Origin: Sphingomonadaceae bacterium
GTDB taxonomy: Bacteria > Chloroflexota > UBA6077
NCBI GenBank assembly: GCA_050261575.1
Contig: JBLNDL010000025.1
Span: 15,115-79,114 of the forward strand
Reading direction: 5' to 3'
DNA length: 64,000 nt
Under the pieces are notes generated by a model. The model ran no database searches. It was not told where the DNA came from and saw only the letters and a list, made by a program, of their open reading frames with translations. Within the stretch, counting starts at the first letter, position 1. The number at the start of each line of letters is the position of its first letter. This document shows, in pieces, positions 44,680 to 61,666 of this stretch. Position numbers and translations under genes: made by a program.

Positions 44680-44735
44680 CTCGAGCCCGTCCGAGAAATG
44701 CCTTTTGATTATAACGTAATTGACAATCTGACCAT

Positions 44736-46928: not shown

Positions 46929-47210
46929 GGTTCTCCTCGTGCGGGTCGAGTCTCACCGGGGCAGCGACGGGCGGGAGCGGGACGCCTGTGGTACGCCCAG
47001 GTGGAGCGGGATCGGACGGCGGCCGCCGCGGGGTCCGCCCCGAACCGATCCGGGTGGGGGAGACGCGAGAGGCTCTGCCGATGCATTCGTCGGGTGGCGG
47101 GGTCAACTCGTGGGCCGGCACCTTGGCCGCCCGACGGGGAACGGCCACCGGCATGCACGCCATCTTCCACGACGCCGCCATTATAGTGGGAGGCGGGGGA
47201 GGGAATCCAG

Positions 47211-47990
47211 ATGGCTCTGGCCTCGCTGGGCCTCGTGGAGCAACCTGCTCGGTACCTCGATGGCAGCGAAGTGTGTGAAATCCTCTCCCCTACGCAGGCG
47301 CCACCAATAGAGGTCCAGCAACTTGACCGTGGAGGCGGCACCATGTCGATCGGGGCGTTCGATCGTGTGTGGGAGCGGAACCGTACGGCGCTCCTCATCT
47401 ACTGCTGCGGTCTGATGCTCGTGAGCTGGTTTGGCACCGTCATCGTCCACGAACTGGGCCACGCCGTGGCAGCAACGCTGCTCGGCATCCCGGTCCGGGG
47501 GATAGCCATCAGCCCCTTCGGGTGGGGCCGGGTCTGGTTCGAGGCCCAGCCGGGGGACCCGGCCAGCGTCGAGTGGGGGATGGTCGCCGCCGCAGGAATC
47601 GGAAGCTGCTTGCTGGTGGGTTACGCCATCCTTCTGGCGAGGCGCCTGTGGCACAGGGGGCGCCCTCTGGTGCAGCCGCTGCTGGCCATGGCCGCCGCCT
47701 GGCTGATCATAGTAAACCCGGCCTACCTCGCGCTGGCCTTCTTCGGGGTTGGCGATGGGGTAGGTGTTGCGAGCGGACTGGGACTCTCGTCGTCCACCGT
47801 AGGGTTCCTCGCCATCGGACTGGTGATGGCGGGGCGGCGGCTTGGGCGCGACCTCTTCCGGCTCGCGTTTCGACCGTTTCAGCAAGTGGGCTCCGACAAC
47901 CTCAAATGGGTGTGGCGGCGGTGGTTGCTCTGGGTTGCCATCTTCTTCGTCTACCAGATGGTGGGCATGGCGGCGTTCGGGATCGAGTAA
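47211..47990 (+). CDS. polytopic membrane protein with HExxH motif (putative zinc metalloprotease)
   Basis: VIVHELGHAVAATLLGIP plus several TM segments. Family not assigned. Confidence 0.6.
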   Translation: MALASLGLVEQPARYLDGSEVCEILSPTQAPPIEVQQLDRGGGTMSIGAFDRVWERNRTALLIYCCGLMLVSWFGTVIVHELGHAVAATLLGIPVRGIAISPFGWGRVWFEAQPGDPASVEWGMVAAAGIGSCLLVGYAILLARRLWHRGRPLVQPLLAMAAAWLIIVNPAYLALAFFGVGDGVGVASGLGLSSSTVGFLAIGLVMAGRRLGRDLFRLAFRPFQQVGSDNLKWVWRRWLLWVAIFFVYQMVGMAAFGIE

Positions 47991-48376
47991 CGGCCCAGCC
48001 TTTGACTCAGGAGTGCGGCGGGAAGAGGGCGCCGTAAGGGGGACGCCGGTCGAGCAGGCCGAGCAAGCCCAGCAGCGTGCAGGTAGCTGCAAGAGGCCAC
48101 ATAACGCCGAAGCCCCGGCCCCGGCTCACGACGCCAAACCCCGCCGACCCCAGGGAAGATCCCCCCGTCGAAGCCAGCGAAGTAGGTGCTGAAGGTAGTA
48201 TCCCTGGGAGTCGTTGCCTCAAAATCTGTCTTACTCTCTTTGGAGGCTGGGGGCTGGGAGTGAGGCGCCAGAGCAAGCACGAGTTGGCCGCGGGGTGGCA
48301 GGAGCGACACTGGAAGGCTTCCAGAGAGGCTCAAGGCACAAAACACGGAGCCTGGATAAGCTCCAGGCCCCAAATC

Positions 48377-48421
48377 TTGGAGGCGACGAGCGGATTCGAA
48401 CCGCTGATAGAGGTTTTGCAG
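48377..48421 (-). repeat. displaced 3' half of tRNA-Cys (att-like direct repeat, left copy)
   Basis: 45 nt identical to 61008-61052 (TTGGAGGCGACGAGCGGATTCGAACCGCTGATAGAGGTTTTGCAG). The 5' half of the tRNA is absent here. Confidence 0.85.
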
Positions 48422-48849
48422 TTCTGCCCGGAGCGGGCAACCGCTGCCAAGTGCTGCCAACGCGTGCCTACTCTACAGGTATCTACGATCAACCAGTACC
48501 CTTCCGGGAGGTCAGTCCCAGGGGGTTTGTTAGCAGTATGTTTGTAGATCTCGGCACCATTGGAGGAAGCATCACGCGAATGCCGGAGGCGGTGTTCCGA
48601 ACGTCCGCAGGGTCTGCCCAAAGGGGATGCCCACCCGTTCCCCCAGGTTCCAACTTGGGGTCGGACAGCTCCGGACCTCGCGGAAGCTGGATGCTGGAGA
48701 CTCCCACGATGTCCGAAGGCTGCGCGGCAAGACCTGGGCACGCCGCTGCCTTCACACCGGCATCACCAGCAGGACCTTCGGCTAGTACACCAGATCCCCC
48801 GGTAGGCCTCAGGGAGACTCCTCTCAGCATCCCTTGCTCGTGCTGCTCT

Positions 48850-50031
48850 TCATTCGGTTATCCTGGCGATTCCGGCAGGACGCCACCCACCGTTCTCCTT
48901 GATGACCTCTGTCATAGTGTTGACGATCAACTCCGTGGCCGCGGAGTTGCTGGCGATCACCACTTGCCTGGCATTCCACAGAGACCCCAGCGCCTCTTCC
49001 AGTTGGCCAAGAGCCCTCTCGCACATCGCCTTCTGGTACCAGCACTCCCATAACCACCGGTTTGCCTCGACAGCACTGTTCGACGCCTCCAGCGCCTCCT
49101 GATAGCGACCCAGTTTGCACAACTCGGCCGACAGGAAGTCCCAGCCTCTGGCGTTTTCCGGGTCCAACCGGACCACCTGTCTGAACGACTCTGAGGCCTC
49201 ATCCTGCCTGTCGAGGAGGCCCTCGGCGCCGCCTCGGTAGTACCAGGCCACGCTGTGCTCGGGGCACTCCTCCACCACCGCTCTTAGGAGCTCTAGGGCC
49301 TTCTCGCCCTCCCCGGCGTCTCCCAGCCTCATTGCCTCCTGCATCAGCGGGAACACCACAGGGCCTTCCAGTTCGCTGAGCCGTTTCTCGGCGTGCTCCC
49401 GTATCGACTCCTCACCGGCCTTCGCCAGCCGCACGGCCCACCGGTAGGAGCGGATGGCATCGCTCCTCCTACCGAGGGATTCCTCCACTCGCCCCCTATT
49501 GTCCCAGGGGACTGCGCTGTCCGGATCGGACTGACTGGCGAACCCGTAGGCCTCGACTGCCTTCTCGTTTTCGTCCAGCATCACCATCAGGCGACCCAGG
49601 TTGATCCAGGCAGGCGCGTAGCGCTGGTCGATCTCTATGGCCCTCTGGTAGCAGTCGATCGCGGTTGCAGGCTGGTCCAGGTCCACCGCGCACAGCCCCG
49701 CGCAGACCCAGGCCGCCTTGTTCTGGGGATCGATCTCAACGGCTCTGGTGTGGCATTGGATCGCTTCTCTGGCTCTGCCGAGATCCTGTAGCCGGTTGCC
49801 TTTGCTCATCCAGAATCCCGAGTTATTCGGGTCGAGTTGTATCGCCCGGTCGTAGAGGTCGAGCGCTCTCTCCGGTTCTCCCATGAGCGCCACACAGGTT
49901 GCTTTGTCCGCCCAGGCGCCAGCTCTTCTCGGATCGATCGCCAATACCTTGTCGAAAAGCTCAATCGCTTCGGTGTATCTCCCCTGTGAGGATAGGGTGC
50001 TGGCGAGGATGTGACCGGCCTCAACCTCCAT
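48850..50031 (-). CDS. TPR-repeat protein
   Basis: 393 aa from ATG 50031. Repeated A..Y..AL..DP....AW motifs throughout. The upstream part of the 845-aa ORF overlaps the helicase gene in another frame and is rejected. Confidence 0.75.
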   Translation of the reverse strand: MEVEAGHILASTLSSQGRYTEAIELFDKVLAIDPRRAGAWADKATCVALMGEPERALDLYDRAIQLDPNNSGFWMSKGNRLQDLGRAREAIQCHTRAVEIDPQNKAAWVCAGLCAVDLDQPATAIDCYQRAIEIDQRYAPAWINLGRLMVMLDENEKAVEAYGFASQSDPDSAVPWDNRGRVEESLGRRSDAIRSYRWAVRLAKAGEESIREHAEKRLSELEGPVVFPLMQEAMRLGDAGEGEKALELLRAVVEECPEHSVAWYYRGGAEGLLDRQDEASESFRQVVRLDPENARGWDFLSAELCKLGRYQEALEASNSAVEANRWLWECWYQKAMCERALGQLEEALGSLWNARQVVIASNSAATELIVNTMTEVIKENGGWRPAGIARITE

Positions 50032-50090
50032 GTTCTGGGAAGTGATCTTGGGTGGCTGCCCCGAGGAGTGAGATCTGGGCAGGAACCTTT

Positions 50091-53000
50091 TCAGATCCAC
50101 TTCTCGCTCCTCTCTCTCATGATCTCGAGCACCCCCCAGCGTGGGTCCTGGAGGGCGGCGTCCAGCTCGGTGAAAGACTGCCTCGCCTTGATCTGGCCGG
50201 GTGTGAGCTGCTCCGCAAAGGCCGCCAGGCGGGCCTGAAGCTCTGGCGACCACACGGGGTAACCGCCCAGCTTTTCCAGACACTGCTTCATCCTCTGGCC
50301 CGCGGCGCCTCGGCGCTTCAACACCTGGATCAACACCTCGTTGGGATCGCCTGCGCCAGGCCCTATGGTGACCAGGTACCGCCCCAACTCCATCTTCAGA
50401 CGCTCCCTCGCGGCTGCAACCTGTTGCTCCAGCCCCTCCCGCTCTCGCTGGGCCGCGGTAGCCTCCATGGCCGCTACCTCTGCCTCCGCCAGCTTTCTTG
50501 CCTTCTCCCGAGCCGCGGCGAGCGCCGAGGCGTCGGCTCCGGTTCCGTCCCAGTTGTTCACCAGGGAGGTAAGCTGCGACATCGAGGTGACCGGTCGGCA
50601 CCCAGCCCCGTCGACCCACAGCGCGACCGAGCGCCGGAAGGAGCCGTGGCTGTGGCTCTCCACCACCAGCGGCAACCTCTCCCCTGCCCTGGTCAGTCCC
50701 TTGGCAAGTTCCTTGAACCTCGGGTCCAGCGGCGAGAGGGGAAGGACCCGGGGGTCGCGCTCGAGTTCCTGGAGAGTGCCCGAGTAGACGGCCCGCTTCA
50801 TCCCGGGCACCGTGACCGTCCACAGGCTGCGCTTCTTGTCCTTCTTCGCCGTCGGCCCGAACTCGCCGGTGAGCATTCCTAGCGCGGCTTCGATCTCTGC
50901 CATCGAGAGCCCGGCAACCTCGTCTCCCGGTACGACCGCCTCGCTCTGGAGATAGCTCTCGGTAGCCAGGGCGTCGCCCTCGACCGCGGCCGCTGCTTTC
51001 TCGAGCGCGTCGGGGTCCACGGGCACCTGGCCCAGCAGCATCTTCCTCGCGATCGCCAGTACAGGCTGCATCGGACCGACGAAGTGCTCGAAGAGCCCGC
51101 ACCGCCGCCTGAGCGCGTTGTATACTAGCTCGTCGACGCTCTTCTCCAGGAAAAAGTTCACGACCCGGACTTCTTTCTGCTTCTGGCCGATCCTGTCGAT
51201 GCGGCCGATCCGCTGCTCCACCTTGCTCGGGTTCCACGGCAGGTCGTAGTTGATCACCGCCCCCGCGGACTGGAGGTTGAGGCCCTCGCTCGCGGCGTCG
51301 GTGCACACCAGGATGCGCAGCTTGCCATCCCTGAGATCCCTGGTGATGGCGTCCTTGGTAACCGGCTTCCAATCCTTGCCGTCCCACTTCTCTCCGCCCT
51401 CTCCGCAGTAGCAGCCGAGCGCCTCTCCGTAGTGGGCTACAAGGTTCTGCCGGAGGTAGACCATCGTGTCCGAGTACTCGGTGAAGATCAGCACGGGGCG
51501 ACCGTCCTCGGTCACTCGCCGTAGCTGGTCGTAGAACTGCTCCAGCTTGCTGTCCTTGGCTCCGAGGTCCGCCAGTTCCCGAAGGAGGTGGTTCACCTCC
51601 TCCAACTCCGCCCTGGCAATGTCGGGGCTCGTGGGGTAGGCGGCGGAGACCTTCAGCACGTCATCTCCCACCCCCGCGTCCGGCAGATCGCGGGCATCCG
51701 GCGCGTCCTCCGGCTCTATGTCCCAGTCCAGGGCCTGCTGGGCGGCCACGCGCTCCAGGCCGCGCCTTCGCCGGTTAAGGCTCTCGTAGAGCGCCCTGGG
51801 CGAGCTGGACGCCCTCCGCCGGTATATCGTCATCACGAAGCCCTTACCGGCCTTCTCCTTCTCCAACTCCTCGAAGCGGCGCTTGATGTAGGTCTCGATC
51901 CCCTCGTAGACGTGGCGCTCCCGTTCATCGGTGAAGTCGTAGCGAACGTCTTCGACCCGGCGGTCCGGAGGCGCGGTGTCGAGCAAGCCCATCCTGTAGT
52001 AGTGCCTGAGGGTATCGCGCGTGTTACGGTGCATCCTGCGGCCTAGAGGCGAGCCACGCCTCATCCAGCCCGCCACGCTCGCCCGCTCCGAGGACTTGCA
52101 GAAACGCAGCCGCCGGGCGATGTCCGACACGCCGCCCTTCCAGGCTTCGGCTCCATCGGGGGCAGGGAAGTGAGGGTCGCTGGAGATGAGGCTCGCGGCG
52201 CTGATGGCCGTCTCCTGGTCGCATCGTCCGCCTGCCACGGCGGAGATCGCCTGGTAGTAATCGCGTACCCTCCCGAACTCCGCCAGCCACTCGCCCCCCT
52301 CGCCGAGCACGGACAGGAGGTCCCATGGCTCCCATGGCTGGGTCTGCATCGGAGTCGCGCTGAGGAGAAGGATCCCCCTGGCCTTCCCTGCGTACTGGAG
52401 CTTCCGCAGCAGGCTCAGGAGGAGGTTGGCGCCGTTGAACTCGCCCTCGACAGGCCTGGCCCTCCTGGCCGCGTGCGCCTCGTCCATCAGCACGAGATCC
52501 CAGGTGGGCCCCGCGAGGATCTTCTGGACGTTGGCGTCCAGCCTCGCCAGCTCGCGGCTCAAGATCAGCGAGTCCTCCTCCAACGCGGCTGCGAGGTCGA
52601 CGTTCGACCGGGTCGAGCCGTCGGGCCAGATCAGCGAGGCGCCCTCCAACCTCGGAAAGACGAGCCCGCCCTTCTCCCGTAGCTCCCCCTGCCACTGGCG
52701 GAGCAGACCTGCCGGAGGCAGGACCAGCACCCGCTTCACCCCGCGCCCTGCCATCAGGCGCCGCATCACCAGGATCGCTTCCACCGTCTTCCCCAGGCCG
52801 ACCTCGTCGCACAGCAGCCGGCCCATCGGCCAGGCCGAGGCGGTTTCCTCCACGACACGGCGCTGGTGGGGCCAGGTGGATACCATGGCCGTCGCGTCGC
52901 AGGACGCGCCGCCGCCGGAGAGAAACGGCGCCTCGGTGATGAAGCGCCAGACCATGGCGGCCCTCTGCCTGGGGAGCGCGTCCGTCGGTTCCTGGGTCGG

Positions 53001-53762
53001 CGGCTTCGGGGGCGCCAGCTTCACCAGACGGAGCCTGAGCGCCTCAGGAAGATCGACGGTGTGGACATCAGGATGGGTGTCGCTCCAGAGCAGTTCGAAC
53101 TGCGTCGTCATCTCCTGATGTCGCTCGAGATCCTCCCACGACGTCGAGACCTCGAATTGCTCGTAGTTGCCCGCGAGCCCCTGGGCCGATTCGTTGCCGG
53201 AGCCCGCGAATACCACCGCGTCGCCGGCCCCGTCCGTGACGATGCCGAACTTGCCGTGGACTATCCCCTCCCCACGGCGCATCACTCCCACCCTCACCGC
53301 GAGAAGCCCCTCTTTGACGAGCCAGGCGAGCATCTTCAGGCGGGCCTTCTCAAGTGCCTGCTGAGGGTTCTTGAAGCGCCGCCTGAGGTGGGCCTCCAGC
53401 GCCTTCGTATCGCCAGTCTCGGTGAGCGCGTCCACGTCCTCGGCGGACAGCTCCTCGTTGACGAGGAGACGTACGGCGGGCCTGGGAGCAGCGTCCCCCA
53501 TTGCCGTGAGCCGCTCGATGAGGGGCCCGAAGCCCCGCGCCGCCGCGGAGAGGACGGAGCTGGAGAAGTAGGCACAGCAGCGATCGTACCTGACCGCCTC
53601 CCTCAGCGCTGGCACGTACAGTTCCTCCAGCAGAGCCTGGTCCGGCCCCCGCAGGAAGCGCCGCCACGCGCGGGACCGGAGGCCGCCGGAAAGCGAAATG
53701 TGGCTGGCTGCGACGCCGGCCGGCTGGGCGGTCAACCTACTCACCGTCTCCCTCCTCTTCAT
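50091..53762 (-). CDS. PLD-type (HKD) nuclease domain fused to SNF2-family helicase
   Basis: HKD HGKFGIVTD..FAGSGNES. Helicase motifs DEVGLGKT (I), LMDEAHAAR (II), LLSATP (III), QRIGRIDRIGQ (VI). Start at ATG 53762, or GTG 53744. Confidence 0.85.
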   Translation of the reverse strand: MKRRETVSRLTAQPAGVAASHISLSGGLRSRAWRRFLRGPDQALLEELYVPALREAVRYDRCCAYFSSSVLSAAARGFGPLIERLTAMGDAAPRPAVRLLVNEELSAEDVDALTETGDTKALEAHLRRRFKNPQQALEKARLKMLAWLVKEGLLAVRVGVMRRGEGIVHGKFGIVTDGAGDAVVFAGSGNESAQGLAGNYEQFEVSTSWEDLERHQEMTTQFELLWSDTHPDVHTVDLPEALRLRLVKLAPPKPPTQEPTDALPRQRAAMVWRFITEAPFLSGGGASCDATAMVSTWPHQRRVVEETASAWPMGRLLCDEVGLGKTVEAILVMRRLMAGRGVKRVLVLPPAGLLRQWQGELREKGGLVFPRLEGASLIWPDGSTRSNVDLAAALEEDSLILSRELARLDANVQKILAGPTWDLVLMDEAHAARRARPVEGEFNGANLLLSLLRKLQYAGKARGILLLSATPMQTQPWEPWDLLSVLGEGGEWLAEFGRVRDYYQAISAVAGGRCDQETAISAASLISSDPHFPAPDGAEAWKGGVSDIARRLRFCKSSERASVAGWMRRGSPLGRRMHRNTRDTLRHYYRMGLLDTAPPDRRVEDVRYDFTDERERHVYEGIETYIKRRFEELEKEKAGKGFVMTIYRRRASSSPRALYESLNRRRRGLERVAAQQALDWDIEPEDAPDARDLPDAGVGDDVLKVSAAYPTSPDIARAELEEVNHLLRELADLGAKDSKLEQFYDQLRRVTEDGRPVLIFTEYSDTMVYLRQNLVAHYGEALGCYCGEGGEKWDGKDWKPVTKDAITRDLRDGKLRILVCTDAASEGLNLQSAGAVINYDLPWNPSKVEQRIGRIDRIGQKQKEVRVVNFFLEKSVDELVYNALRRRCGLFEHFVGPMQPVLAIARKMLLGQVPVDPDALEKAAAAVEGDALATESYLQSEAVVPGDEVAGLSMAEIEAALGMLTGEFGPTAKKDKKRSLWTVTVPGMKRAVYSGTLQELERDPRVLPLSPLDPRFKELAKGLTRAGERLPLVVESHSHGSFRRSVALWVDGAGCRPVTSMSQLTSLVNNWDGTGADASALAAAREKARKLAEAEVAAMEATAAQREREGLEQQVAAARERLKMELGRYLVTIGPGAGDPNEVLIQVLKRRGAAGQRMKQCLEKLGGYPVWSPELQARLAAFAEQLTPGQIKARQSFTELDAALQDPRWGVLEIMRERSEKWI

Positions 53763-56721
53763 CCTCGCCGGACTCCAGGCTCTCCTCCAGTTGCGTCCAG
53801 ACCATCTGCGGAGAGGTCCTTTCCGTCCAGTCCGGCGGCTCGATCCCGAAAACGGGTTTGAGTAGGGCGTGCCAGGCGCGGAACTCGGGGAAGATGGAGG
53901 CAACGGAGAGCTTACCGGTGTCGTGTCGAACGGCCTCGGGCGCGGCGAGGACCAGCGCCTCCATCAGCTTAGCCACGGGGCTTTCCCTCGTCCATCGCTG
54001 CTGGTTCGCGACCGCCTTGGCCGCGCCGACTCCACCCCCGCCGCTCCCCGCCTCGATGTACGCGAGAGCGAGGGCATGGCAGCCGTCCATGGCAGACCGG
54101 AAGCGCGGGTCGTTGGGGTGGACCTTCAGCGCTTGCTTCTTCGAGACCTTCTTCTTTCCCTTCGCCACGGTGCCGAACAGCGTCTCCTCGTACTCCTCCG
54201 GCTTCAGCGCCTGGTCGCGGCGCCGCTCCCTGGCGGGCACCATGCGGATGCTGTCGCCGCTCTTCGTGACGAGCCCAGCGGCAACGAGAGAGTCCACGCT
54301 CATCCCCACCGCGTGGCCTAGCAGCTTCGCTTCGTTGAAGCGGAACTCGGCCGCCCCCAACACGTCCCAGCAGAGCAGTGCGAAGCGTCCCTCCGCCTCG
54401 ACTCCCTCCAGGCCTCGTCTGGCAAGCTGCTCTACGCGCCACTCGCTGACGGCGTCGGCGGCCTCGTCGATGGCGGCCGCGACGGCCACCGGCTCCCCCG
54501 TGTCGGTCCGCACTTCTGAGTACCGGCTGTACACCTCCATAGCGGGGCCGAAGGATCCGACGAGCTGGTCGACCGCGTTGAGGCCCTCCTGCTTTAACTG
54601 GTTCGCCTTCGCCCGGGCCCTCTCGCGGATCTCCTCCCTGATGGCGTCGAAGTAGCCGACCCCCGCCCCGGGACGGCGCTTGCGCGCCACCAGCAGCACG
54701 GTGCTCTGGGCGGCGTTCTTGCGGGCCTGGTGGAGCGAGTGCTGGCTCTCGGTCTTCACCGGCCAAGTGGCGGTGATGGTGAAGCCGGCCTTGATCAGCG
54801 AGGAGAACAGCGCCTCCCAGGCCTCCTGCTTCTTGTGGGTGAACATCACGGTAAGGACCCCGTCGTCGCGCAGGATGCGCCGGCACTCCGCGAACACGTC
54901 GCCCATGAGCCGCTGGTAGAAAGCGTTGGCCTCGGCCCGTGCCTCGGCGGCGGTCAGCTCGCCGCCCTTTCGGTGGCGCTCCACGTTGACGACCGCCTCC
55001 TCGGTGTGGTCGCACAGGTAGGTGGAGAACCACTCGGGCCGGCGGTGCCCCTGGGTGCGCTTCAGCCAGACGTAGAAGAAGTCCGCCAACTCCGAGTACT
55101 GGACGTTATCCGCGTAAGGAGGATCCACCACCACAGCGGTGATGCTCCCGTCCTCGATCTGGGGCATGCTGGTGGCCGAGCCGAAGAAGACGGTGGCGGG
55201 GTTAGCAGCGGGGCGACGAGGGAGTCTGCAGATGTCCTCATAGGCGCTCAAGACGTTGTCGATCGCCCAGGCGAGACCTTCCCCACTCCCACATGGGGCC
55301 ATCTCGGAGAAGGTAGACTTGAACGCAAAGTCATGGCGATCGAAGACGCTTCTGATCACCTGCCTGGGAGCATGCCACGATGCCAGGATCGAGTTGTAGT
55401 TGGCCCATTTGTCCAGGACGAAGGCGAGAAGGTGCTCGACTGCCCTTCCGACCTCCTCACCTTCGGCCTCGATAATCTCTGGGCGGAGCTTCCGAAGCTC
55501 CTCCACCATCACGCCGAGGCCAAGCAACTGCCGCGGGGAGAACATGTCCGCCCACCGCGGCATGCCGTAGACCCTCGGGCGCTCGTCGCTTGTCACCTCG
55601 GGATACAACTCAGTCGGGATGATCCCATCCCGCTCCCAGGCCGGTCGCAGCCGCGCCAACTCCTTCTCCGCGGCAGCCAGAGCGCGCAGGTCCTCCTGCT
55701 CGGGCGGCTGGAAGGTGAGCCCTTGAGGGGTTTTCACTCCCACGGCGTACAACGCACTGCCCATCTCCCCTGCCTGGGCCTTCGCCTTGATGTACTCCGA
55801 CGGAATCTGGTGCCCGCTGAAGATGGAGACGCCCTTTCCGTCGGCGTAAGTAGGAGCCGGGGGCATCTTGAGCTGCCCCGCCATGCGCCCAATCTCCCTG
55901 ATCCTGACAGTCCACGTGCCCCGCCGCGAATCCACGATCGGCTCGGCCACGATTCTCTTGCCGGAGGACGGTCTGAGGAGATGCCAGTCCGGCACCAGGG
56001 GTGTGTGCGGGTTGCCGGGCGTGTCGGGGCACGGCACCGTGCGGGCGAAGATGTAAGCGTGCACCGAGGAGAAGGGGTGCTTAGGGAAGTACTTCCCGAC
56101 CCTCTCCTCAACTCGATTCAACCAGACCTCGCTCCATGCTCGAGCCTTAGCTGCTATTGAGGCACCATGGCGAAACGGGTAGTCGATCGTGGCCTCGAGT
56201 GCTGAGCAGGCGACCGGGTTGTACTCGTTGGCAATGGTCTGGATGCCCAGCCGTGCGCTTTCCAGCGGTATGGAGCCACCACCCGCCATGGGGTCAATCA
56301 CCGTGACACTGCCCCAGAGCGCAAGTACCGCATCGTGGACCTTCCGGAGATCATCCTCGCGGAGCACATGCTTGAAGGCACGGTCGCAGCCGAAACCGCC
56401 GGGCACCTGGTAGCCAGTGTCCATCAACTGCCTTACTTGTACGATCTCCTCGCCCGGCCTGCCGAACCCCAGCAAACGCTCAAAGACGTCCCTGGGGAAG
56501 TCGGCAGGGAGCAAGGACGCCAGCACCGCAGCACGCGAAGCGGTAAGCGGCCGTCGCGCCCACCACACGTGCAGAAACGTCGTGGGAGCGAGTGCGCTGG
56601 CGCTTCCCCGTTCTCTCATGCACTCAACCCCGATGGCCGCGGCCGGGAGCCACTCCTCGATCAGCAGCCGCGGGGGCTCACTGCCCCTGCTTACCTCTCC
56701 CTTCGACAGAGTCTCGGTCAT
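53737..56721 (-). CDS. DUF1156-type DNA amino-methyltransferase (N6-A or N4-C)
   Basis: N-terminal FLHVWWARRPLTASRA, SAM motif I VIDPMAGGGSIP, motif IV VVDPPYADNV about 390 aa later. 994 aa. Confidence 0.85.
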   Translation of the reverse strand: MTETLSKGEVSRGSEPPRLLIEEWLPAAAIGVECMRERGSASALAPTTFLHVWWARRPLTASRAAVLASLLPADFPRDVFERLLGFGRPGEEIVQVRQLMDTGYQVPGGFGCDRAFKHVLREDDLRKVHDAVLALWGSVTVIDPMAGGGSIPLESARLGIQTIANEYNPVACSALEATIDYPFRHGASIAAKARAWSEVWLNRVEERVGKYFPKHPFSSVHAYIFARTVPCPDTPGNPHTPLVPDWHLLRPSSGKRIVAEPIVDSRRGTWTVRIREIGRMAGQLKMPPAPTYADGKGVSIFSGHQIPSEYIKAKAQAGEMGSALYAVGVKTPQGLTFQPPEQEDLRALAAAEKELARLRPAWERDGIIPTELYPEVTSDERPRVYGMPRWADMFSPRQLLGLGVMVEELRKLRPEIIEAEGEEVGRAVEHLLAFVLDKWANYNSILASWHAPRQVIRSVFDRHDFAFKSTFSEMAPCGSGEGLAWAIDNVLSAYEDICRLPRRPAANPATVFFGSATSMPQIEDGSITAVVVDPPYADNVQYSELADFFYVWLKRTQGHRRPEWFSTYLCDHTEEAVVNVERHRKGGELTAAEARAEANAFYQRLMGDVFAECRRILRDDGVLTVMFTHKKQEAWEALFSSLIKAGFTITATWPVKTESQHSLHQARKNAAQSTVLLVARKRRPGAGVGYFDAIREEIRERARAKANQLKQEGLNAVDQLVGSFGPAMEVYSRYSEVRTDTGEPVAVAAAIDEAADAVSEWRVEQLARRGLEGVEAEGRFALLCWDVLGAAEFRFNEAKLLGHAVGMSVDSLVAAGLVTKSGDSIRMVPARERRRDQALKPEEYEETLFGTVAKGKKKVSKKQALKVHPNDPRFRSAMDGCHALALAYIEAGSGGGGVGAAKAVANQQRWTRESPVAKLMEALVLAAPEAVRHDTGKLSVASIFPEFRAWHALLKPVFGIEPPDWTERTSPQMVWTQLEESLESGEDEEEGDGE

Positions 56722-57146
56722 TCAACGGCCTCCGTCAGGATCCTCAGCGCACGCACCGCCCTGGAGCGGGCGCCGCCGTCGGTCAGCCCGAGCCACCAGG
56801 CAGCCTCAGCCCCGTCCAGCCTCCTCAGCGCCTCTCCCGACCGGAAGAGCCGCTCGGCGTCCCTCAGGCCGGTCGAAATCAGGGCATACAATGCCGTCCG
56901 AGCGCCCCAATCCTCGTCTAAAGGTAGGAACGGCCCGGGCGCGAGCCTCGTCCCGTTGCCCCCGGATGCCCTGGCGGCCTCCCGCAACAGGGGTCCCCCT
57001 GACAAGAAGGCCAGGGCCGAGATGGCGGCCATCTTCCGCAGCCTGTCCCTGCCCCCGTCGACAAGCCTGCGCCTGTACACTATTGCCGCGTCGCCCTCGC
57101 GGCGGCGGACTACCCTCAGGGCAAAGGGCGCCTCTCTGAGCTTCAT
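56718..57146 (-). CDS. small hypothetical protein embedded in the cassette
   Basis: 142 aa from ATG 57146. ATGA overlaps at both ends (57143-57146 and 56718-56721). No motif recognised. Confidence 0.55.
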   Translation of the reverse strand: MKLREAPFALRVVRRREGDAAIVYRRRLVDGGRDRLRKMAAISALAFLSGGPLLREAARASGGNGTRLAPGPFLPLDEDWGARTALYALISTGLRDAERLFRSGEALRRLDGAEAAWWLGLTDGGARSRAVRALRILTEAVE

Positions 57147-60097
57147 CTCGCACCTCCCTTCGCCTCGGAGGTCTTGCCGAATGTGGCTGTGGGGGAGATC
57201 GCCTCTCCCGCCTTCTCCGCGGCCTGCTCGATGGTGTGAGCCATCCCAGATCTTCCACTGCCGAAGCTCAGCGTTAGGACCGCCTCGTAGGCGGCGCCTT
57301 CCGCCAGCGCGTTGAACAGCGTTCTCGCTGTCTCGAGCGGCCTCGCGGGGTGGTTGAGGCTTACCTCGCACGCCTTGAAGGAGAGGGTGCCTCCCTGCTT
57401 CGCGCTCCCGTCCACGTCGACGTCCAGTGTCACGCTCTCCGCACCGAAAGGCTGCGCCACCGCCGCGAGAAGCGCCGCATCGGCGGGCTTCCCGGCGGTC
57501 AGCCTCAGGGAGAGGAGCGGGCGCCCGCTCGCGTACTCCAGCGCCTTCGCCCAGGTAGTCGCGGTCACCTTCGGTGGATCGGGCGGGGTCCATATCCCCC
57601 CTCCACCATCGGGCAAACCGCCCCCACCGGTTCCGGTGCTGTCGTCTTCCTTCGGTGCCTCCTCTACGTCCTCGCGCATCCACTCCACGGCCTCGGCGCT
57701 GTCGGCGCGAGACAGGAGCGTCGCGTCGTCCAGATCAATCGTGGTGAGCATTCCTTCGCTCTTCCGGCGCTCCCCGAGGTCGCCGGTAGTCCGGTAGCCG
57801 CCGCAGTAGGCAGAGCCGTCCTCCAGCCGTACCGCCAGAAGGCCCTTCTCGACAGCCTTCAGGATGGTCTGGGAAACCACACTCGAGTTGGGGAGGAGGC
57901 GAAGGCCCTTCATGGAGAGGAAGCGCTCGTGGACCGCCCTTGCGCTGTACACTTCCTGTTTGCCCGCCTCCGGGACGGCGCCCGGCAGGACCTCCTTCAT
58001 GAGCCGGTCGAGATCCAGCGTGTCCCCTGGCTGGTAGATCAGCTTCTTCTCGTCCAGGAACTTCTTCACGATCGCCTGGCCCTTGACCTGGCGGAGCAGA
58101 TCGTCGTCGCTCGTCTGGAGCGGCTCCTCCAACCTGTAGACTGTCCCGCTTGCGAGCACCACCCGGTCGAACGCCCTCATCGTGTCCAGGCGGAAGCGCT
58201 TGACCAGCCCCGGCCGTACCCTGCCGAGCTGCTCCTTGACCAGCTTCCCCTGCTCGCCCTTCGCCTCCTCCTCGATCCTCGTCGCCGCTATCAGCCGCTG
58301 GGCCCTCTCCACGGCGATGTTGAATGCAGGGATGTTCGGCGCGACCGCGAGGATGGAGTTCAAGAAGCGCCGCGGCATAGGGGCTTCCGGCACCGAGTCG
58401 TCCTCGTACCTGCACACCCGCTTCGCCATCGCCTCGTCCTCGGCCAGGACCAACTGCAGCTCGCGGCTCTCGGGCACCTGGCGTGGGCTCGCGGGCAAGG
58501 AGACGAGCTTGAACACCGGGCCCTGGAAGTAGGCCTGCGCCTCGGCCATCACCCAGCCGCGAGCGTCCTCCAACGGCACCTTTGCCATCTGCTCCTCGAT
58601 CTGCTTCAGCACGTTCGGCTCGTATCGGAACTGGTACCCGTCTCCCCCAGCCATCGGGTAGAGGTGCCAGCACACCCCGGCCAGGCGGTCCATGGCGTCC
58701 ACGGGCTCGGGGCCGGCTTCATCCGGCCGCAGCACTGCCAGCGTGACCTGCTGCCGGTCCAGGCCGGCATTCGGAGCCATCTGGATGCTTTCCAGCAGTA
58801 TGGCCGAGGCCACACGGCGGTGGATCCCCCTCGGTTCCTCGCCGTCCAACTCTCCGGCATGGGTGATCACGTCTGCCTCCACGGCGGCGATGAAGCGGTC
58901 CCTGTCCAGCCGCTGAAGGAGGTCGGCCTTGATCCGGTCACTCGACCAATCCACGTCCCCCGCGCTGATCACCTCCAAGTCGCGCCCCGACTCCCAGACG
59001 TCTCGGATGATCCTGGCGAAGAGTCGGAGCACCCCGCGGCTCTTCTGGAAGGCTCCCAGGGCGGAGAGCCGTTCCTGGGCGGTTTCCAGCAGACGCGGAT
59101 GGAACGGATAGCATTCCAGCAGCAGGCGGTCGTACTCTGGGGTCTTTGCCGCAACGGGCAGCAGGCCGGGATAGGCCTGGGAAACGCGCTGGTAGAGGTC
59201 GTGGTAGAGGGCGGAGGCGGCCTGCGCCGCTCCTGTGTCGACGTGCTCGAAGAGCCGACGGACGATGACCCTCGCCGACTCCCCGCCGATCGGGTCGAAC
59301 TCGCTGGCCTTCCTGCCGAAGATGTCGTCCAACTTCGCTCCGGCGCCGGGCAGCGCCCTGGCGAGCCTGTCGGCTTCCCCCGCGTACGCCCGCTGCTCCC
59401 TCGGGTCCGTGACCACGAGGGCGGCCTGATGTCGGGCTCCCACCACCCCGGCAAGGGTCGTGATGAAGCCGAGCAGGTTCCCCTGGCCTCGCTCGGAGAG
59501 CTTCGCCATGTAGATCACCAGCTCGTCCAGGAGGAACAAGGCCGGCTCGGCCGGCATCACGTCCCTGATCTGCCCCTCGTGGGGAGAGGCCTCGGGATCG
59601 TCCGCCTCGCCCAGGATCTTGAGGCCATCCCTGCCGGCCAGTTGATAGAAGATTTCCCCCCACAGGCTGTGGATCTGGATCCCCTCATGAACATCGAAGA
59701 CCGGCACCCCGGCCTTGCCGGCATCGACGGCGACAACCTTGACGCTCTTGGGCCTCCCCGCATGGGGGAGCAGCTCTGTGCCCAGGGTCGCGTCGGCGAT
59801 GTTCTTCGCCAGGTGCCACATCGCGATGAGGGTGTGGGTCTTGCCCCCACCGAAGCCGGTGCTCAGCCCCACTGTGATGCCGGCCTCGGTGGTGCTCGCC
59901 AGCCGCCCGAAGACCGCGGAGATCACCTTCCTCAGCCGCTCGGCCGGGTGGGTGTTGCGGAAGAAGAGTGCGGGGTTGCCGTAAACCGGGGGCGCCTCCC
60001 CCGTGATGACGTGGTAGAAGTCCGCGGCGAAGATTGCGTCGTCGAGGTCGCCTTTGAGCACTTCTGGTCGAGGCTTGCAGCCTGTGAGAACTCCCAT
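57143..60097 (-). CDS. large P-loop ATPase, DUF499 / BrxC(PglY)-like
   Basis: Walker A STGFGGGKTHTL, Walker B ALFLLDELVIY. 984 aa from ATG 60097, preceded by an AAGGAG SD. Confidence 0.8.
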   Translation of the reverse strand: MGVLTGCKPRPEVLKGDLDDAIFAADFYHVITGEAPPVYGNPALFFRNTHPAERLRKVISAVFGRLASTTEAGITVGLSTGFGGGKTHTLIAMWHLAKNIADATLGTELLPHAGRPKSVKVVAVDAGKAGVPVFDVHEGIQIHSLWGEIFYQLAGRDGLKILGEADDPEASPHEGQIRDVMPAEPALFLLDELVIYMAKLSERGQGNLLGFITTLAGVVGARHQAALVVTDPREQRAYAGEADRLARALPGAGAKLDDIFGRKASEFDPIGGESARVIVRRLFEHVDTGAAQAASALYHDLYQRVSQAYPGLLPVAAKTPEYDRLLLECYPFHPRLLETAQERLSALGAFQKSRGVLRLFARIIRDVWESGRDLEVISAGDVDWSSDRIKADLLQRLDRDRFIAAVEADVITHAGELDGEEPRGIHRRVASAILLESIQMAPNAGLDRQQVTLAVLRPDEAGPEPVDAMDRLAGVCWHLYPMAGGDGYQFRYEPNVLKQIEEQMAKVPLEDARGWVMAEAQAYFQGPVFKLVSLPASPRQVPESRELQLVLAEDEAMAKRVCRYEDDSVPEAPMPRRFLNSILAVAPNIPAFNIAVERAQRLIAATRIEEEAKGEQGKLVKEQLGRVRPGLVKRFRLDTMRAFDRVVLASGTVYRLEEPLQTSDDDLLRQVKGQAIVKKFLDEKKLIYQPGDTLDLDRLMKEVLPGAVPEAGKQEVYSARAVHERFLSMKGLRLLPNSSVVSQTILKAVEKGLLAVRLEDGSAYCGGYRTTGDLGERRKSEGMLTTIDLDDATLLSRADSAEAVEWMREDVEEAPKEDDSTGTGGGGLPDGGGGIWTPPDPPKVTATTWAKALEYASGRPLLSLRLTAGKPADAALLAAVAQPFGAESVTLDVDVDGSAKQGGTLSFKACEVSLNHPARPLETARTLFNALAEGAAYEAVLTLSFGSGRSGMAHTIEQAAEKAGEAISPTATFGKTSEAKGGAR

Positions 60098-60354
60098 GAG
60101 TGAACGCTCCTTTGCGGAATTCAGGAGGTCGGCAGCAAACGAGGAAACCGGAGCAGGAGCGGGACCGCGCGGTTGCGCCCGGCAGGGACCGCTCAGGTGC
60201 ATCAGCTACTACCAGAGAACACCACGGTTTGCAATCCCCCAAAAGCTCATGCCACCGCAGGCGATAGATGTACCGTCCGGCATCCGCCCTGGGTTAGAAG
60301 GGGTCTCCCAACATTGTACAGACAACTTGCAATCAGGCACGGTACACTGCCGGC

Positions 60355-60732
60355 ATGGGAAGAACAGCGAGGTACACCAAGGAGAAGCAGACCGAGGCCG
60401 TGGCCCTCGCGGTGGTCTCGGGTTCCGCTCGGGGAGCCGCCAGGGAGTACGGGATTCCGGCTCGCACCGTACAGAGGTGGGTCCGGGAGGCCGAAGCCGA
60501 TCCGGACCTGGCAGATGTTATCGCGTCCAAGAGACTCAAGATAGCCGCCGCGCTGGCCGACGCGGCCGAAAGCGCCATGCTCGAGATACTCGCCACGCTG
60601 GAGAGGTGGCGGGAGAGTCCCCTGGAGTGGACCACCTTGGATATCCAGAGCGTGCCCGTGACGTGCTGCATCATGCTGGACAAGCTGGATCTGCTGCTGA
60701 AGCAGGGCGACTTCCACCGCTACTCCAGGTAG
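60355..60732 (+). CDS. small helix-turn-helix protein (transposase/terminase-small-subunit-like HTH)
   Basis: 125 aa. GSARGAAREYGIPARTVQRWV is a classic HTH. Divergent from the ATPase gene. Confidence 0.6.
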   Translation: MGRTARYTKEKQTEAVALAVVSGSARGAAREYGIPARTVQRWVREAEADPDLADVIASKRLKIAAALADAAESAMLEILATLERWRESPLEWTTLDIQSVPVTCCIMLDKLDLLLKQGDFHRYSR

Positions 60733-60976
60733 GACCGGCGCCGCTCCTTCCTGACACGCCCCCTCTGCCCTCCCGACTTACCTGTAGCGGTCGCGATGAC
60801 CATACCGTCCGCCAGCAGGGGCGGTTGTCGATGGTCGGGGCTCCGCTTCTACGGGTCCAGATCACGGTTCCGGCCCCAAGACCCTAGTGATAGTGGCGCA
60901 CGCACGTCGCACGAAAGCAGAATGTTTGCAGCGGCACCTGGAGCGCCCGGGCCTGGAAGGCGAAGACACAGGATAT

Positions 60977-61001
60977 GGGCTCTGGAGCGGCTCCAGAGCC
61001 C
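60977..61001 (-). terminator. hairpin immediately downstream of tRNA-Cys, inside the island-derived flank
   Basis: GGGCTCTGGAGC-G-GCTCCAGAGCCC, 8 nt after the tRNA 3' end. Confidence 0.55.
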
Positions 61002-61008
61002 AACATAT

Positions 61009-61082
61009 TGGAGGCGACGAGCGGATTCGAACCGCTGATAGAGGTTTTGCAGACCTCCGCCTTGCCACTTGGCCACGTCGCC
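61009..61082 (-). tRNA. tRNA-Cys (anticodon GCA), CCA encoded
   Basis: Acceptor GGCGACG/CGTCGCC, anticodon stem GAGGT/ACCTC with loop CT-GCA-AA, T arm AGCGG-TTCGAAT-CCGCT, discriminator U, CCA. Confidence 0.92.
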
Positions 61083-61146
61083 GATCACCGCCGTTCAGCC
61101 CGAAGAGGCTGCGAGGCACGCCCGCAGCCTCCGACTGCTCAACGGG

Positions 61147-61218
61147 AGCGGAAGACGAGATTCGAACTCGCGACCCTCTCCTTGGCAAGGAGATGCTCTA
61201 CCACTGAGCCACTTCCGC
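61147..61218 (-). tRNA. tRNA-Gly (anticodon GCC)
   Basis: Acceptor GCGGAAG/CTTCCGC, anticodon stem TCTCC/GGAGA with loop TT-GCC-AA, T loop TTCGAAT. Confidence 0.9.
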
Positions 61219-61300: not shown

Positions 61301-61316
61301 TCTCAAGGTCAATCAG

Positions 61317-61346
61317 ATTCTAGCCCACCCCGCCCAAGGGTGTCAA
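61317..61346 (-). promoter_or_regulatory. near-consensus sigma70 promoter of the tRNA-Phe-Gly-Cys unit
   Basis: Minus strand: -35 TTGACA, 18-nt spacer, -10 TAGAAT. tRNA-Phe starts 16 nt after the -10. Confidence 0.7.
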
Positions 61347-61666
61347 GGCTGCGCATTGCCTCACGACTAGCCAGACCCGAGGCTGGATCGTTGCCTCACA
61401 ATCCATCGCTGTCAGCTATCCGTGCGCCTTGGACATGCTGGACATCGCAACGGGCTGGAGAGAGTGTCAGGGGATCGTAGACAAGAGCCAGGAGGCTGTC
61501 TTGGCCGCTCGGGAGGAGTTGCGGGCTCGGCCGCCCTTCCCCCTGCTGGGTATCGACTCCACCGATGGAGTGGAACACCCGCTACCCCCGCCCTGCCAGA
61601 CACGCAGCGCGCCCAGCCACCTGGCGAAATAACAGCCCCGCACCAACTGCGGAGCCAGAATCTCAG

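What the first reader, a model, noticed from the sequence alone, without database searches (positions are those of the whole stretch)
48377..61052. 12.6-kb island inserted in tRNA-Cys, bounded by perfect 45-bp direct repeats, with no integrase
Seen in sequence: TTGGAGGCGACGAGCGGATTCGAACCGCTGATAGAGGTTTTGCAG occurs at 48377-48421 and at 61008-61052. The right copy is the 3' portion (anticodon loop to CCA) of an intact tRNA-Cys(GCA). The left copy lacks the 5' half, so it is a displaced att-type remnant. Imperfect similarity continues about 20 nt beyond the CCA on both copies (GCTCCAG-GCCCCAAATC vs GCTCCAGAGCCCAACATA). Established knowledge: tyrosine-integrase islands typically duplicate the 3' part of a tRNA gene. 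Unusually, none of the six frames between the repeats shows an integrase, recombinase or transposase. Only a 125-aa HTH protein lies next to the tRNA, so the island appears immobilised or trans-mobilised.
Basis: partly seen in the sequence, partly recalled or inferred. Interest (0 to 1): 0.7.

Follow-up and report, generated by a model that had tools for sequence, protein, structure and literature searches.

The report
Integrase-less defence island in tRNA-Cys
A 12.6-kb block of anti-phage genes sits in the end of a tRNA-Cys gene in an uncultured Chloroflexota bacterium; it keeps both attachment sites of an integrating element but has lost the integrase, which is a well-known kind of decayed mobile island.

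Summary
A perfect 45-bp direct repeat lies at 48377-48421 and 61008-61052. The right copy is the 3' part of an intact tRNA-Cys(GCA). The 12.6 kb between the copies encodes no integrase, recombinase or transposase.

The cargo is one operon: a DUF499 ATPase, DUF7680, a DUF1156 methylase and a PLD-SNF2 helicase (an Hma / BREX-related defence system), plus a TPR protein. A rare 125-aa HTH protein lies beside it.

A near-identical strain (99.75% flank identity) has the empty site, with the flank joined directly to tRNA-Cys and tRNA-Gly. Four related elements from other metagenomes carry a tyrosine integrase directly beside the same tRNA-Cys. Their integrase-to-tRNA arm is homologous to 60913-61007 here. 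A conserved 18-nt motif from that arm occurs exactly twice in the window, once in each island arm.

The island is best read as a decayed tyrosine-integrase element that kept attL and attR, like a CIME (cis-mobilizable element). Such islands are already described, including in Chloroflexi (Dehalococcoides ssrA islands). I could not decide whether a helper integrase still moves it or whether only homologous recombination does. It is a new member of a known kind, of modest interest.

The parts
48346..48372 (-). Native terminator-like hairpin of tRNA-Cys (11-bp stem plus a T-rich tail). It belongs to the chromosomal flank, outside the island.
   Evidence: Terminator scan; fold -26.1 kcal/mol, z = -4.4. 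In the empty-site contig L089 it directly follows the tRNA.
48377..48421 (-). tRNA-distal att copy: a 45-bp duplicate of tRNA-Cys positions 31-74 plus 1 nt, with no 5' half.
   Evidence: Metagenome contig L085 carries the same partial copy, plus 6 more bases identical to the island side and 1 to the flank side (52 nt in all, 48376-48427).
48422..48849 (.). Non-coding distal arm of the island (428 bp).
   Evidence: No ORF with the host's codon-position GC pattern. No Pfam hit in any of the six frames. No Rfam family.
48529..48546 (+). Distal copy of the conserved 18-nt motif GWWWGCARWATGTTTGYA (GTTAGCAGTATGTTTGTA), 107 nt from the core. Candidate arm-type binding site.
   Evidence: One of only two hits in 64 kb, with 0 expected even at 2 mismatches. 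The motif is the only conserved block in the arm alignment.
48850..50031 (-). TPR-repeat protein, 393 aa, the last gene of the cargo operon.
   Evidence: Pfam TPR families. The exact product is called on Logan contigs L096 and L097.
50091..53762 (-). PLD (HKD) nuclease fused to an SNF2 helicase, 1223 aa (HmaA-like / BR helicase-nuclease).
   Evidence: Pfam PLDc_2, SNF2-rel_dom, Helicase_C. PADLOC PLD_Helicase 2.6e-70. NCBIfam NF042964, 3e-101, below its cutoff. Gene call.
53737..56721 (-). DUF1156 N6-adenine DNA methyltransferase, 994 aa (HmaB-like). Its central part is hypervariable between strains.
   Evidence: Pfam DUF1156. PADLOC HmaB 1e-83. NF042963. Divergence of 4.5-25% against the second island allele.
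56718..57146 (-). Small DUF7680 protein, 142 aa.
   Evidence: Pfam DUF7680, 31 bits. Gene calls.
57143..60202 (-). DUF499 AAA+ ATPase, 1019 aa (HmaC-like).
   Evidence: Pfam DUF499. PADLOC HmaC 1.5e-69. NF042962.
60355..60732 (+). 125-aa stand-alone HTH protein with a transposase/Fis-type HTH. It occupies the position and orientation that the integrase has in related elements.
   Evidence: HTH_Tnp_1, 24.7 bits, borderline. Only 58 relatives at E<=1e-3 among 1.84 billion representatives. A 34%-identical homologue lies on a phage-like contig with a terminase domain.
60733..61007 (.). Non-coding tRNA-proximal arm. The stretch 60913-61007 is homologous to the integrase-to-tRNA spacer of related elements.
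   Evidence: blastn: L084 83.5% over 170 nt (window 60916-61082), L093 82%. Alignment. No protein fragment found.
60913..60930 (+). Proximal copy of the 18-nt motif (GAAAGCAGAATGTTTGCA), 77 nt from the core.
   Evidence: The same motif lies at most ~20 nt beyond the integrase stop (overlapping the ORF end in L084) and 77-78 nt from the tRNA in L084, L093, L094 and L095.
60976..61001 (-). Island-supplied replacement hairpin directly after the tRNA-Cys 3' end.
   Evidence: Fold -23.7 kcal/mol, z = -4.65. Homologous hairpins in L084 and L093.
61008..61052 (-). tRNA-proximal att copy, which is the 3' part of the functional tRNA-Cys.
61009..61082 (-). Intact tRNA-Cys(GCA), first gene of a Cys-Gly-Phe-Val-Leu tRNA cluster.
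   Evidence: ARAGORN. Rfam tRNA, 66.3 bits.

Best explanation
This is the remnant of a tRNA-Cys-specific integrating element of the tyrosine-integrase type.

How it formed (inferred). The element's attP carried a copy of the tRNA 3' half (45 bp, probably 51 bp) plus a replacement terminator hairpin. Recombination with the chromosomal tRNA-Cys placed the element between the tRNA and its native terminator. This rebuilt the tRNA and left a partial copy at the far end.

What has changed since (inferred). The integrase gene, which in relatives sits directly beside the tRNA-proximal arm, is gone, along with any other core genes. The break lies within a few bases of the conserved arm motif. An unrelated phage-type HTH gene now occupies that position.

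What remains (shown). Both att sites are present, each arm keeps a copy of the conserved 18-nt motif, and there is a single cargo operon. The operon encodes a DUF499-centred BREX-related (Hma) restriction-modification-like defence system plus a TPR protein.

Current behaviour (inferred). The island cannot move by itself. It persists as a strain-variable defence island. It can be gained or lost by homologous recombination in the flanks, or in principle by a helper integrase from an incoming relative, as with a CIME.
For: Boundaries and target site:
- Perfect 45-bp repeat, with the tRNA rebuilt.
- An empty site in a strain with a 99.75%-identical flank, whose contig continues into tRNA-Cys and tRNA-Gly.
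- A second island allele in another sample ends in the same repeats on both sides.

Relatives with integrases:
- In four contigs from other metagenomes (L084, L093, L094, L095; integrases 71-96% identical to that of L084) the order is integrase stop, 18-nt motif, 77-78 nt containing a hairpin, then the tRNA-Cys 3' end.
- The window has this same arm at 60913-61007, at 82-84% identity to L084 and L093 over stretches that include the tRNA.
- L093 lies at the same Cys-Gly-Phe tRNA cluster and carries phage-like genes.

Other support:
- The motif occurs only twice in 64 kb, once in each arm and in the same orientation.
- No integrase is present anywhere in the window.
- The cargo is identified and in PMC12839542 and PMC11232893.
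- Homologous recombination near the site is suggested by two patterns. Eight of the 11 differences between the empty-site strain and the window lie in the last 190 nt before the att site. Divergence between the two island alleles is mosaic.
Against: - GC content and codon-position GC of the island genes match the host, so there is no compositional sign of foreign origin. This fits an old insertion or a closely related donor.
- Integrase loss is inferred from relatives. No pseudogene fragment documents it, so the element may never have had its own integrase.
- Only 64 kb of a 117,855-bp contig was visible. A cognate integrase elsewhere in the genome cannot be excluded.
- The empty-site evidence comes from k=31 unitig-type contigs of metagenomes. 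L089 is convincing, because it carries its own SNPs and shows no branch. L090 may be chimeric.
- The motif's role as an arm-type site is inference only. L093 shows just one copy.
Confidence: 0.8

Rival explanations
1. The island is an active helper-dependent hitchhiker. It is maintained as an att-only element. A cognate tRNA-Cys integrase, supplied by a co-resident or incoming phage-like relative, excises it and integrates it in trans, or in cis after tandem accretion. The defence operon spreads between strains in this way.
For: - Both 45-bp cores are identical, and both arms keep the conserved 18-nt motif at the family-typical spacing.
- Homology to the integrase-bearing relatives stops exactly at the motif, so the full arm was retained while the integrase ORF was removed.
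- The island is present or absent among strains that differ by about 0.2%.
- The right half of the island diverges about 1.7% between strains, against about 0.2% for the flanks.
- The integrase family that targets this site is common in metagenomes.
Against: - No helper integrase was found in the window. None could be tied to the same samples: the closest integrases come from other runs.
- There is no tandem array and no third att copy.
- The left 5 kb of the island is as similar between strains as the flanks are. This fits a single ancestral insertion followed by recombination, not repeated transfers.
- The SNP cluster beside the att site in the empty-site strain points to homologous recombination.
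- An excised circle cannot be detected from k=31 unitigs.
Confidence: 0.3
2. No site-specific recombination was involved. Either the defence operon inserted by the 'long target duplication' route described for restriction-modification units, or a segmental duplication of the tRNA 3' half was later filled with unrelated DNA.
For: - RM-type gene units flanked by long direct repeats and lacking mobility genes have been reported (PMC2853133, seen by title and abstract only).
- The cargo is RM-like.
- No recombinase is present.
Against: - The duplicated segment is the classic tRNA 3'-half target.
- The sequence next to the intact tRNA is not a copy of the native trailer. It is the homologue of the integrase-proximal arm of four integrase-bearing elements, with the same motif and spacing.
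- An independent contig, L085, shows the same partial copy plus 6 extra identical bases on the island side.
Confidence: 0.05
3. The structure is an assembly artefact. The true genome has an empty tRNA-Cys site plus a separate 12.6-kb circular molecule carrying the 45-mer, and the assembler threaded the circle into the chromosome through the repeat.
For: In the k=31 Logan graphs the flank contig and the island contig both stop 30 nt into the repeat. That pattern is compatible with either topology.
Against: - The window contig (from a 117,855-bp record) spans both junctions. A 45-bp repeat is shorter than normal reads and shorter than the final k-mers of common metagenome assemblers (general knowledge, not tested here).
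- The island has no replication or partition gene.
- The same arrangement recurs in a second allele from another sample.
Confidence: 0.04

Closest known systems
CIMEs (cis-mobilizable elements), first described in Streptococcus thermophilus; 235 are catalogued in ICEberg 2.0 (PMC6323972, PMC5704250)
   Same: By definition these are elements that lost their integration and transfer genes but kept attL and attR. They often lie at the 3' end of tRNA or other conserved genes, carry adaptive cargo, and can be moved after a related element integrates into one of their att sites.
   Different: Known CIMEs derive from ICEs or IMEs of Firmicutes and move with conjugative helpers. Here the integrase-bearing relatives look phage-like or satellite-like: primase, Xis-type HTH, tape-measure and head-closure genes in L093. 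No helper, accretion or transfer has been shown.
Dehalococcoides ssrA genomic islands without an integration module (PMC3146451)
   Same: Same phylum (Chloroflexota). These islands are bounded by the target gene and a direct repeat of its 3' end. Fifteen of them lack the integration module, and the authors suggested they are cis-mobilizable or fixed.
   Different: The target there is the tmRNA gene, with a 20-bp repeat. The recombinase family is serine (CcrB-like DsiB), the islands form tandem arrays, and the cargo is reductive dehalogenases. Here the target is tRNA-Cys with a 45-bp repeat, the family is tyrosine integrase, there is a single island, and the cargo is a defence system.
tRNA-targeting tyrosine-integrase islands and prophages (P4-like and similar; general knowledge)
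   Same: Insertion into the 3' half of a tRNA gene. The element supplies an identical 3' half, so the tRNA stays intact. A partial copy is left at the far end, and arm-type repeats flank the core.
   Different: The defining integrase, which sits next to the tRNA in relatives L084, L093, L094 and L095, is absent here.
DUF499-centred BREX-related (BR) / Hma defence systems (PMC12839542; HmaA tested in PMC11232893)
   Same: The cargo has the tripartite core: a DUF499 ATPase, a DUF1156 N6-methyltransferase with a variable nested TRD, and a helicase-nuclease. The HKD/PLD nuclease fusion plus a small stand-alone gene inside the operon resembles the described Type-2 BR layout.
   Different: The small gene is DUF7680 rather than DUF3780. 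An extra TPR gene follows the helicase. All NCBIfam hits are far below the curated cutoffs, so this is a distant variant. Anti-phage activity of this variant is untested.

Membership tests
tRNA-targeting tyrosine-integrase integrative element (genomic island) | Inserted in the 3' part of a tRNA gene, with a direct repeat that rebuilds the tRNA | tested here: met
   The 45/45 repeat covers tRNA-Cys positions 31-74, and the tRNA is intact.
tRNA-targeting tyrosine-integrase integrative element (genomic island) | An unoccupied target site exists in close relatives | tested here: met
   L089: flank 99.75% identical, continuing straight into tRNA-Cys and tRNA-Gly. L090 is a weaker second case.
tRNA-targeting tyrosine-integrase integrative element (genomic island) | Encodes its own integrase, usually next to the tRNA | tested here: not met
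   Pfam on genes and on six-frame intergenic DNA, tblastn, and a profile HMM of 120 homologues were all negative.
tRNA-targeting tyrosine-integrase integrative element (genomic island) | att arms homologous to those of integrase-encoding members of the family | tested here: met
   The stretch 60913-61007 aligns to the integrase-to-tRNA spacer of L084, L093, L094 and L095, with the same motif and 77-78 nt spacing.
CIME (cis-mobilizable element) | Retains attL and attR | tested here: met
   The cores are identical and a conserved motif is present in both arms. This is sequence-level evidence only; function was not tested.
CIME (cis-mobilizable element) | Lacks integration/excision genes and transfer genes | tested here: met
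   The six genes are an ATPase, DUF7680, a methyltransferase, a helicase-nuclease, a TPR protein and an HTH protein. No recombinase, relaxase or T4SS gene is present.
CIME (cis-mobilizable element) | Derived by decay of an ICE or IME | tested here: inconclusive
   The relatives that carry integrases have phage-like or satellite-like genes, not conjugation genes. The ancestor of this island is not known.
CIME (cis-mobilizable element) | Mobilised after accretion with a helper element | not testable with these tools
   No tandem att copy in the window. Read-level or experimental data are needed.
DUF499-centred BR / Hma defence system | DUF499 AAA+ ATPase, DUF1156 N6-methyltransferase and helicase-nuclease together in one operon | tested here: met
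   PADLOC HmaC 1.5e-69, HmaB 1e-83, PLD_Helicase 2.6e-70, HmaA 3.8e-53. Pfam. The genes are co-directional and overlapping.
DUF499-centred BR / Hma defence system | [quoted passage not shown] | tested here: not met
   The small gene in that position matches DUF7680, not DUF3780. The subtype is therefore only 'Type-2-like'.
DUF499-centred BR / Hma defence system | Confers phage resistance | not testable with these tools
   Only HmaA of Halomonas has been tested (PMC11232893).
Insertion sequence / transposon (suggested by the HTH_Tnp_1 hit) | Catalytic transposase domain and terminal inverted repeats | tested here: not met
   The HTH protein has 125 aa and no DDE/rve domain. Nothing lies downstream of it. 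No inverted repeat pairs the island ends.
Prophage or phage satellite | Integrase plus replication, packaging or structural genes | tested here: not met
   None are present in the island. There is no match to 50,697 phage records or to IMG/VR for the att site.

The most novel reading that the evidence does not exclude
The island is not a dead remnant. It is a selected, att-only 'defence hitchhiker' of Chloroflexota. It has shed every mobility gene yet keeps complete core and arm sites, so that tRNA-Cys-specific integrases of phage-like elements excise and re-integrate it. This lets a BREX-related system travel between strains at the expense of the very elements it may restrict.
Probability: 0.25. 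Interest if true: 0.5.

Novelty: new member of a known kind. Interest (0 to 1): 0.3.

Why it matters
The finding gives a clean, fully delimited example of how a defence system becomes strain-variable in an uncultured Chloroflexota lineage. Three things are available together:
- the occupied site;
- an empty site in a near-identical strain;
- integrase-bearing relatives that use the same tRNA-Cys.

The conserved 18-nt motif in both arms is a concrete candidate binding site for this integrase family. The hypervariable methyltransferase segment shows specificity turnover inside an otherwise near-identical island. None of this changes current concepts. It mainly serves as an annotated case and as a warning that integrase-based island finders will miss such loci.

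Tried and rejected
- **GTDB representative genomes, FtsK query.** I was looking for syntenic empty sites.
- **Exact att 43-mer in IMG/VR.** No match.
- **Whole island against phage and plasmid records.** No phage match. The plasmid hits were only short, 71-82% matches inside the DUF1156 and helicase genes.
- **Decayed integrase in the arms.** Six-frame Pfam at E<=1, tblastn and the profile HMM all found nothing.
- **The HTH protein as an IS3/IS481 OrfA remnant.** Rejected, because there is no catalytic domain, no downstream fragment and no inverted repeats.
- **The HTH protein as an identifiable excisionase.** There is no support. It belongs to a rare uncharacterised family. One homologue lies on a phage-like contig. 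P0141 was not on record.
- **Compositional test for foreignness.** The island does not differ from the host.
- **Higher island divergence as proof of independent acquisitions.** Rejected, because the divergence is mosaic and the left 5 kb matches the flank level.
- **Distal repeat of the L093 element.** Not found in 11 kb.
- **Literature search for the sample accessions.** Nothing found.

Full report
**1. The observation**

The 45-mer TTGGAGGCGACGAGCGGATTCGAACCGCTGATAGAGGTTTTGCAG occurs at 48377-48421 and 61008-61052. It occurs nowhere else in the window, even with three mismatches, and none are expected by chance. ARAGORN and Rfam find an intact tRNA-Cys(GCA) at 61009-61082 on the minus strand. 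It is the first gene of a Cys-Gly-Phe-Val-Leu tRNA cluster. The right repeat is therefore tRNA positions 31-74 plus one base. The left copy has no 5' half.

Similarity continues past the CCA: 55 nt at 95% identity. Beyond that, both copies are followed by an 11-bp hairpin. The one at 48346-48372 has a T-rich tail and is the native terminator-like element. The one at 60976-61001 lies inside the island.

**2. What lies between the repeats**

Gene calls from public assemblies of the same sequence, combined with family scans, give six genes:

| Coordinates | Strand | Product |
|---|---|---|
| 48850-50031 | - | TPR protein |
| 50091-53762 | - | PLD/HKD-SNF2 helicase |
| 53737-56721 | - | DUF1156 methyltransferase |
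| 56718-57146 | - | DUF7680 protein |
| 57143-60202 | - | DUF499 ATPase |
| 60355-60732 | + | 125-aa HTH protein |

The five minus-strand genes overlap or nearly abut, so they form one operon. This operon is the DUF499-centred BREX-related system, also called Hma (PADLOC HmaC 1.5e-69, HmaB 1e-83). PMC12839542 describes it as a restriction-modification-like module. PMC11232893 showed anti-phage activity for one HmaA helicase. The HKD nuclease fusion and the small internal gene make this locus Type-2-like, although the small gene is DUF7680 rather than DUF3780.

The coding density leaves only three gaps, of 428, 152 and 275 bp. An integrase was sought in four ways and not found:
- Pfam on the genes.
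- Pfam on six-frame translations of the gaps at E<=1.
- tblastn with a related element's integrase over all 64 kb.
- A profile HMM of 120 integrase homologues, with positive controls at E about 1e-180 and a best window score of E = 3.7.

**3. Is it an insertion?**

The left flank is core chromosome: FtsK at 45036-46928 and an M50B peptidase at 47211-47990. The source is a Chloroflexota MAG contig of 117,855 bp with no close relative among GTDB representatives.

Exact-protein look-ups of the peptidase gave contigs from sister samples. L089 (SRR24035587) is 99.75% identical to 43984-48421. It then continues directly into the tRNA-Cys 5' half, the spacer and tRNA-Gly, identical to 61053-61174. 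This is the empty site. L089 carries its own SNPs at the junction, and its contig does not break in the repeat, so no island end is present in that sample's assembly graph.

L090 also reads through, into a variant tRNA-Cys with a compensatory anticodon-stem change. It shares only a 35-mer with other tRNA-Cys genes, so it could be chimeric, and I treat it as weak evidence.

L001, L091 and L092 stop exactly 30 nt into the repeat, as expected for k=31 unitigs of an occupied site. The island unitig of 12,646 bp has exactly the length predicted for a segment bounded by the repeats.

A second island allele exists in SRR24035588, as L083 plus L097. It ends in the same repeats on both sides.

**4. What kind of element?**

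The exact 45-mer occurs in just two JGI metagenome contigs.
- L085 holds a partial copy, with no tRNA. On the side that is island in the window it has six further bases identical to 48422-48427.
- L084 holds a complete tRNA-Cys, then about 100 nt, then a 400-aa tyrosine integrase (PF14659 + PF00589) whose 3' end faces the tRNA.

Homologues of that integrase led to three more loci. L094 is 96% identical, L093 73% and L095 71%. L093 sits at a Cys-Gly-Phe tRNA cluster. It carries an HTH_17 Xis-like gene, a D5_N/DUF5906 primase, and tape-measure and head-closure genes.

In all four loci the order is: integrase stop, an 18-nt motif beginning at most about 20 nt beyond it (in L084 the motif overlaps the ORF's 3' end), 77-78 nt containing CACAAAATATGGG and a hairpin, then the tRNA-Cys 3' end. 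The window has the same arm at 60913-61007 (82-84% identity to L084 and L093 over stretches that include the tRNA). Homology stops within a few bases to the left of the motif, exactly where the integrase gene would end. The HTH gene now occupies the integrase's place and orientation.

**5. The motif**

GWWWGCARWATGTTTGYA is a tandem 7-mer with 11-nt phasing. It has two hits in the window, at 60913-60930 and 48529-48546, both on the + strand. None are expected, even allowing two mismatches. In a circularised element the two copies would flank the core at 77 and 107 nt. That is the layout of arm-type integrase sites; this interpretation is inference.

I derived the pattern from the window, L084 and L093. 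L095, and less independently L094, confirm it. L093 has only the proximal copy.

**6. Mechanism and current state**

Shown:
- the insertion, with a rebuilt tRNA;
- the empty site;
- the absence of any recombinase;
- arm homology to integrase-bearing elements.

Inferred:
- integration by a tyrosine integrase of the L084/L093 family;
- later loss or replacement of the integrase module.

I could not resolve whether the island still moves. Two observations argue that homologous recombination shapes the polymorphism. First, eight of the 11 differences between L089 and the window lie in 48193-48379, directly next to the att site. Second, divergence between the two island alleles is mosaic: about 0.2% over 48.4-53.4 kb (the same as the flanks), 4.5-25% in the methyltransferase, and about 1.7% from 56.8 to 61.0 kb. 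Intact cores and arms keep helper-mediated excision possible. No helper was found in the window or tied to the same samples. A k=31 graph cannot reveal an attP junction.

Composition gives no signal.

**7. The HTH protein**

The HTH_Tnp_1 hit is borderline. There are weak hits to the terminase small subunit and to the N-termini of IS3 and IS481 transposases. Only 58 relatives were found among 1.84 billion representatives. The full-length relatives are stand-alone proteins of 145-165 aa with no annotation. One of them lies on a phage-like contig with a terminase domain.

The protein is most likely a leftover phage-type DNA-binding protein. A role in regulation or in recombination directionality is possible but unsupported.

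**8. Comparison with what is known**

[quoted passage not shown] The same situation was reported in Chloroflexi: 15 Dehalococcoides ssrA islands lack the integration module (PMC3146451).

The island meets the sequence-level CIME criteria. Its relatives are phage-like rather than conjugative, and mobilisation is untested. The cargo belongs to a described defence family.

The island is a new member of a known kind, with an interest score of about 0.3.

Noticed in passing
window 53892-56800 (DUF1156 methyltransferase) versus loci L083 and L097: The two island alleles are about 0.2% divergent over the TPR and helicase genes but 4.5-25% divergent inside the methyltransferase. About 380 nt (roughly 56056-56439) did not align by megablast. 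This looks like replacement of the target-recognition region, and so a change of methylation specificity, by recombination.
   Followed up: partly
window 48193-48379 versus L089: Eight of the 11 differences between the empty-site strain and the window cluster in the 190 nt next to the att site. They include an indel and two substitutions in the 9 nt spanning the tRNA 3' end. This may be a recombination-tract boundary or a footprint of earlier att-site turnover.
   Followed up: partly
L089 4395-4405 versus window 48371-48379: In the empty-site strain the tRNA-Cys gene ends in ...GCCTCTAAGG, so it does not encode CCA. Both copies in the island-bearing strain read ...GCCTCCAAG/T and do encode CCA.
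   Followed up: no
L090 3808-3883: A flank 99.8% identical to the window is joined to a tRNA-Cys allele with a compensatory anticodon-stem change (A-U to G-C) and a different D-arm. This is either a real third haplotype or a chimeric unitig formed through a shared 35-mer.
   Followed up: no
L093 1-11308 (JGI TOLCLC_10005268): An element of about 11 kb lies at the same tRNA-Cys-Gly-Phe cluster. It carries an integrase, an HTH_17 gene, a D5_N/DUF5906 primase, and tape-measure and head-closure genes, so it looks like a small prophage or phage satellite. No distal tRNA-derived repeat or second motif copy was detectable in the stretch held.
   Followed up: partly
window 61301-61665: A 365-bp gap between tRNA-Phe and tRNA-Val has no Pfam hit in any frame and no Rfam family. 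This is unusually long for the inside of a tRNA cluster.
   Followed up: partly
window 60355-60732; L098 516-977: The 125-aa HTH protein belongs to a very rare family: 58 hits among 1.84 billion representatives, most of them only to the HTH. A 34%-identical full-length homologue lies on a phage-like contig upstream of a Terminase_6C gene.
   Followed up: partly
window 1-48000: The rest of the window is ordinary core genome (by eye, not family-scanned): icd, cysS, ispDF, radA, clpC, dnaX, polA, tsaBE, thiL and ftsK. The organism has no close relative among 185,579 GTDB species representatives; the best FtsK match is 58% identical, in Chloroflexota.
   Followed up: no
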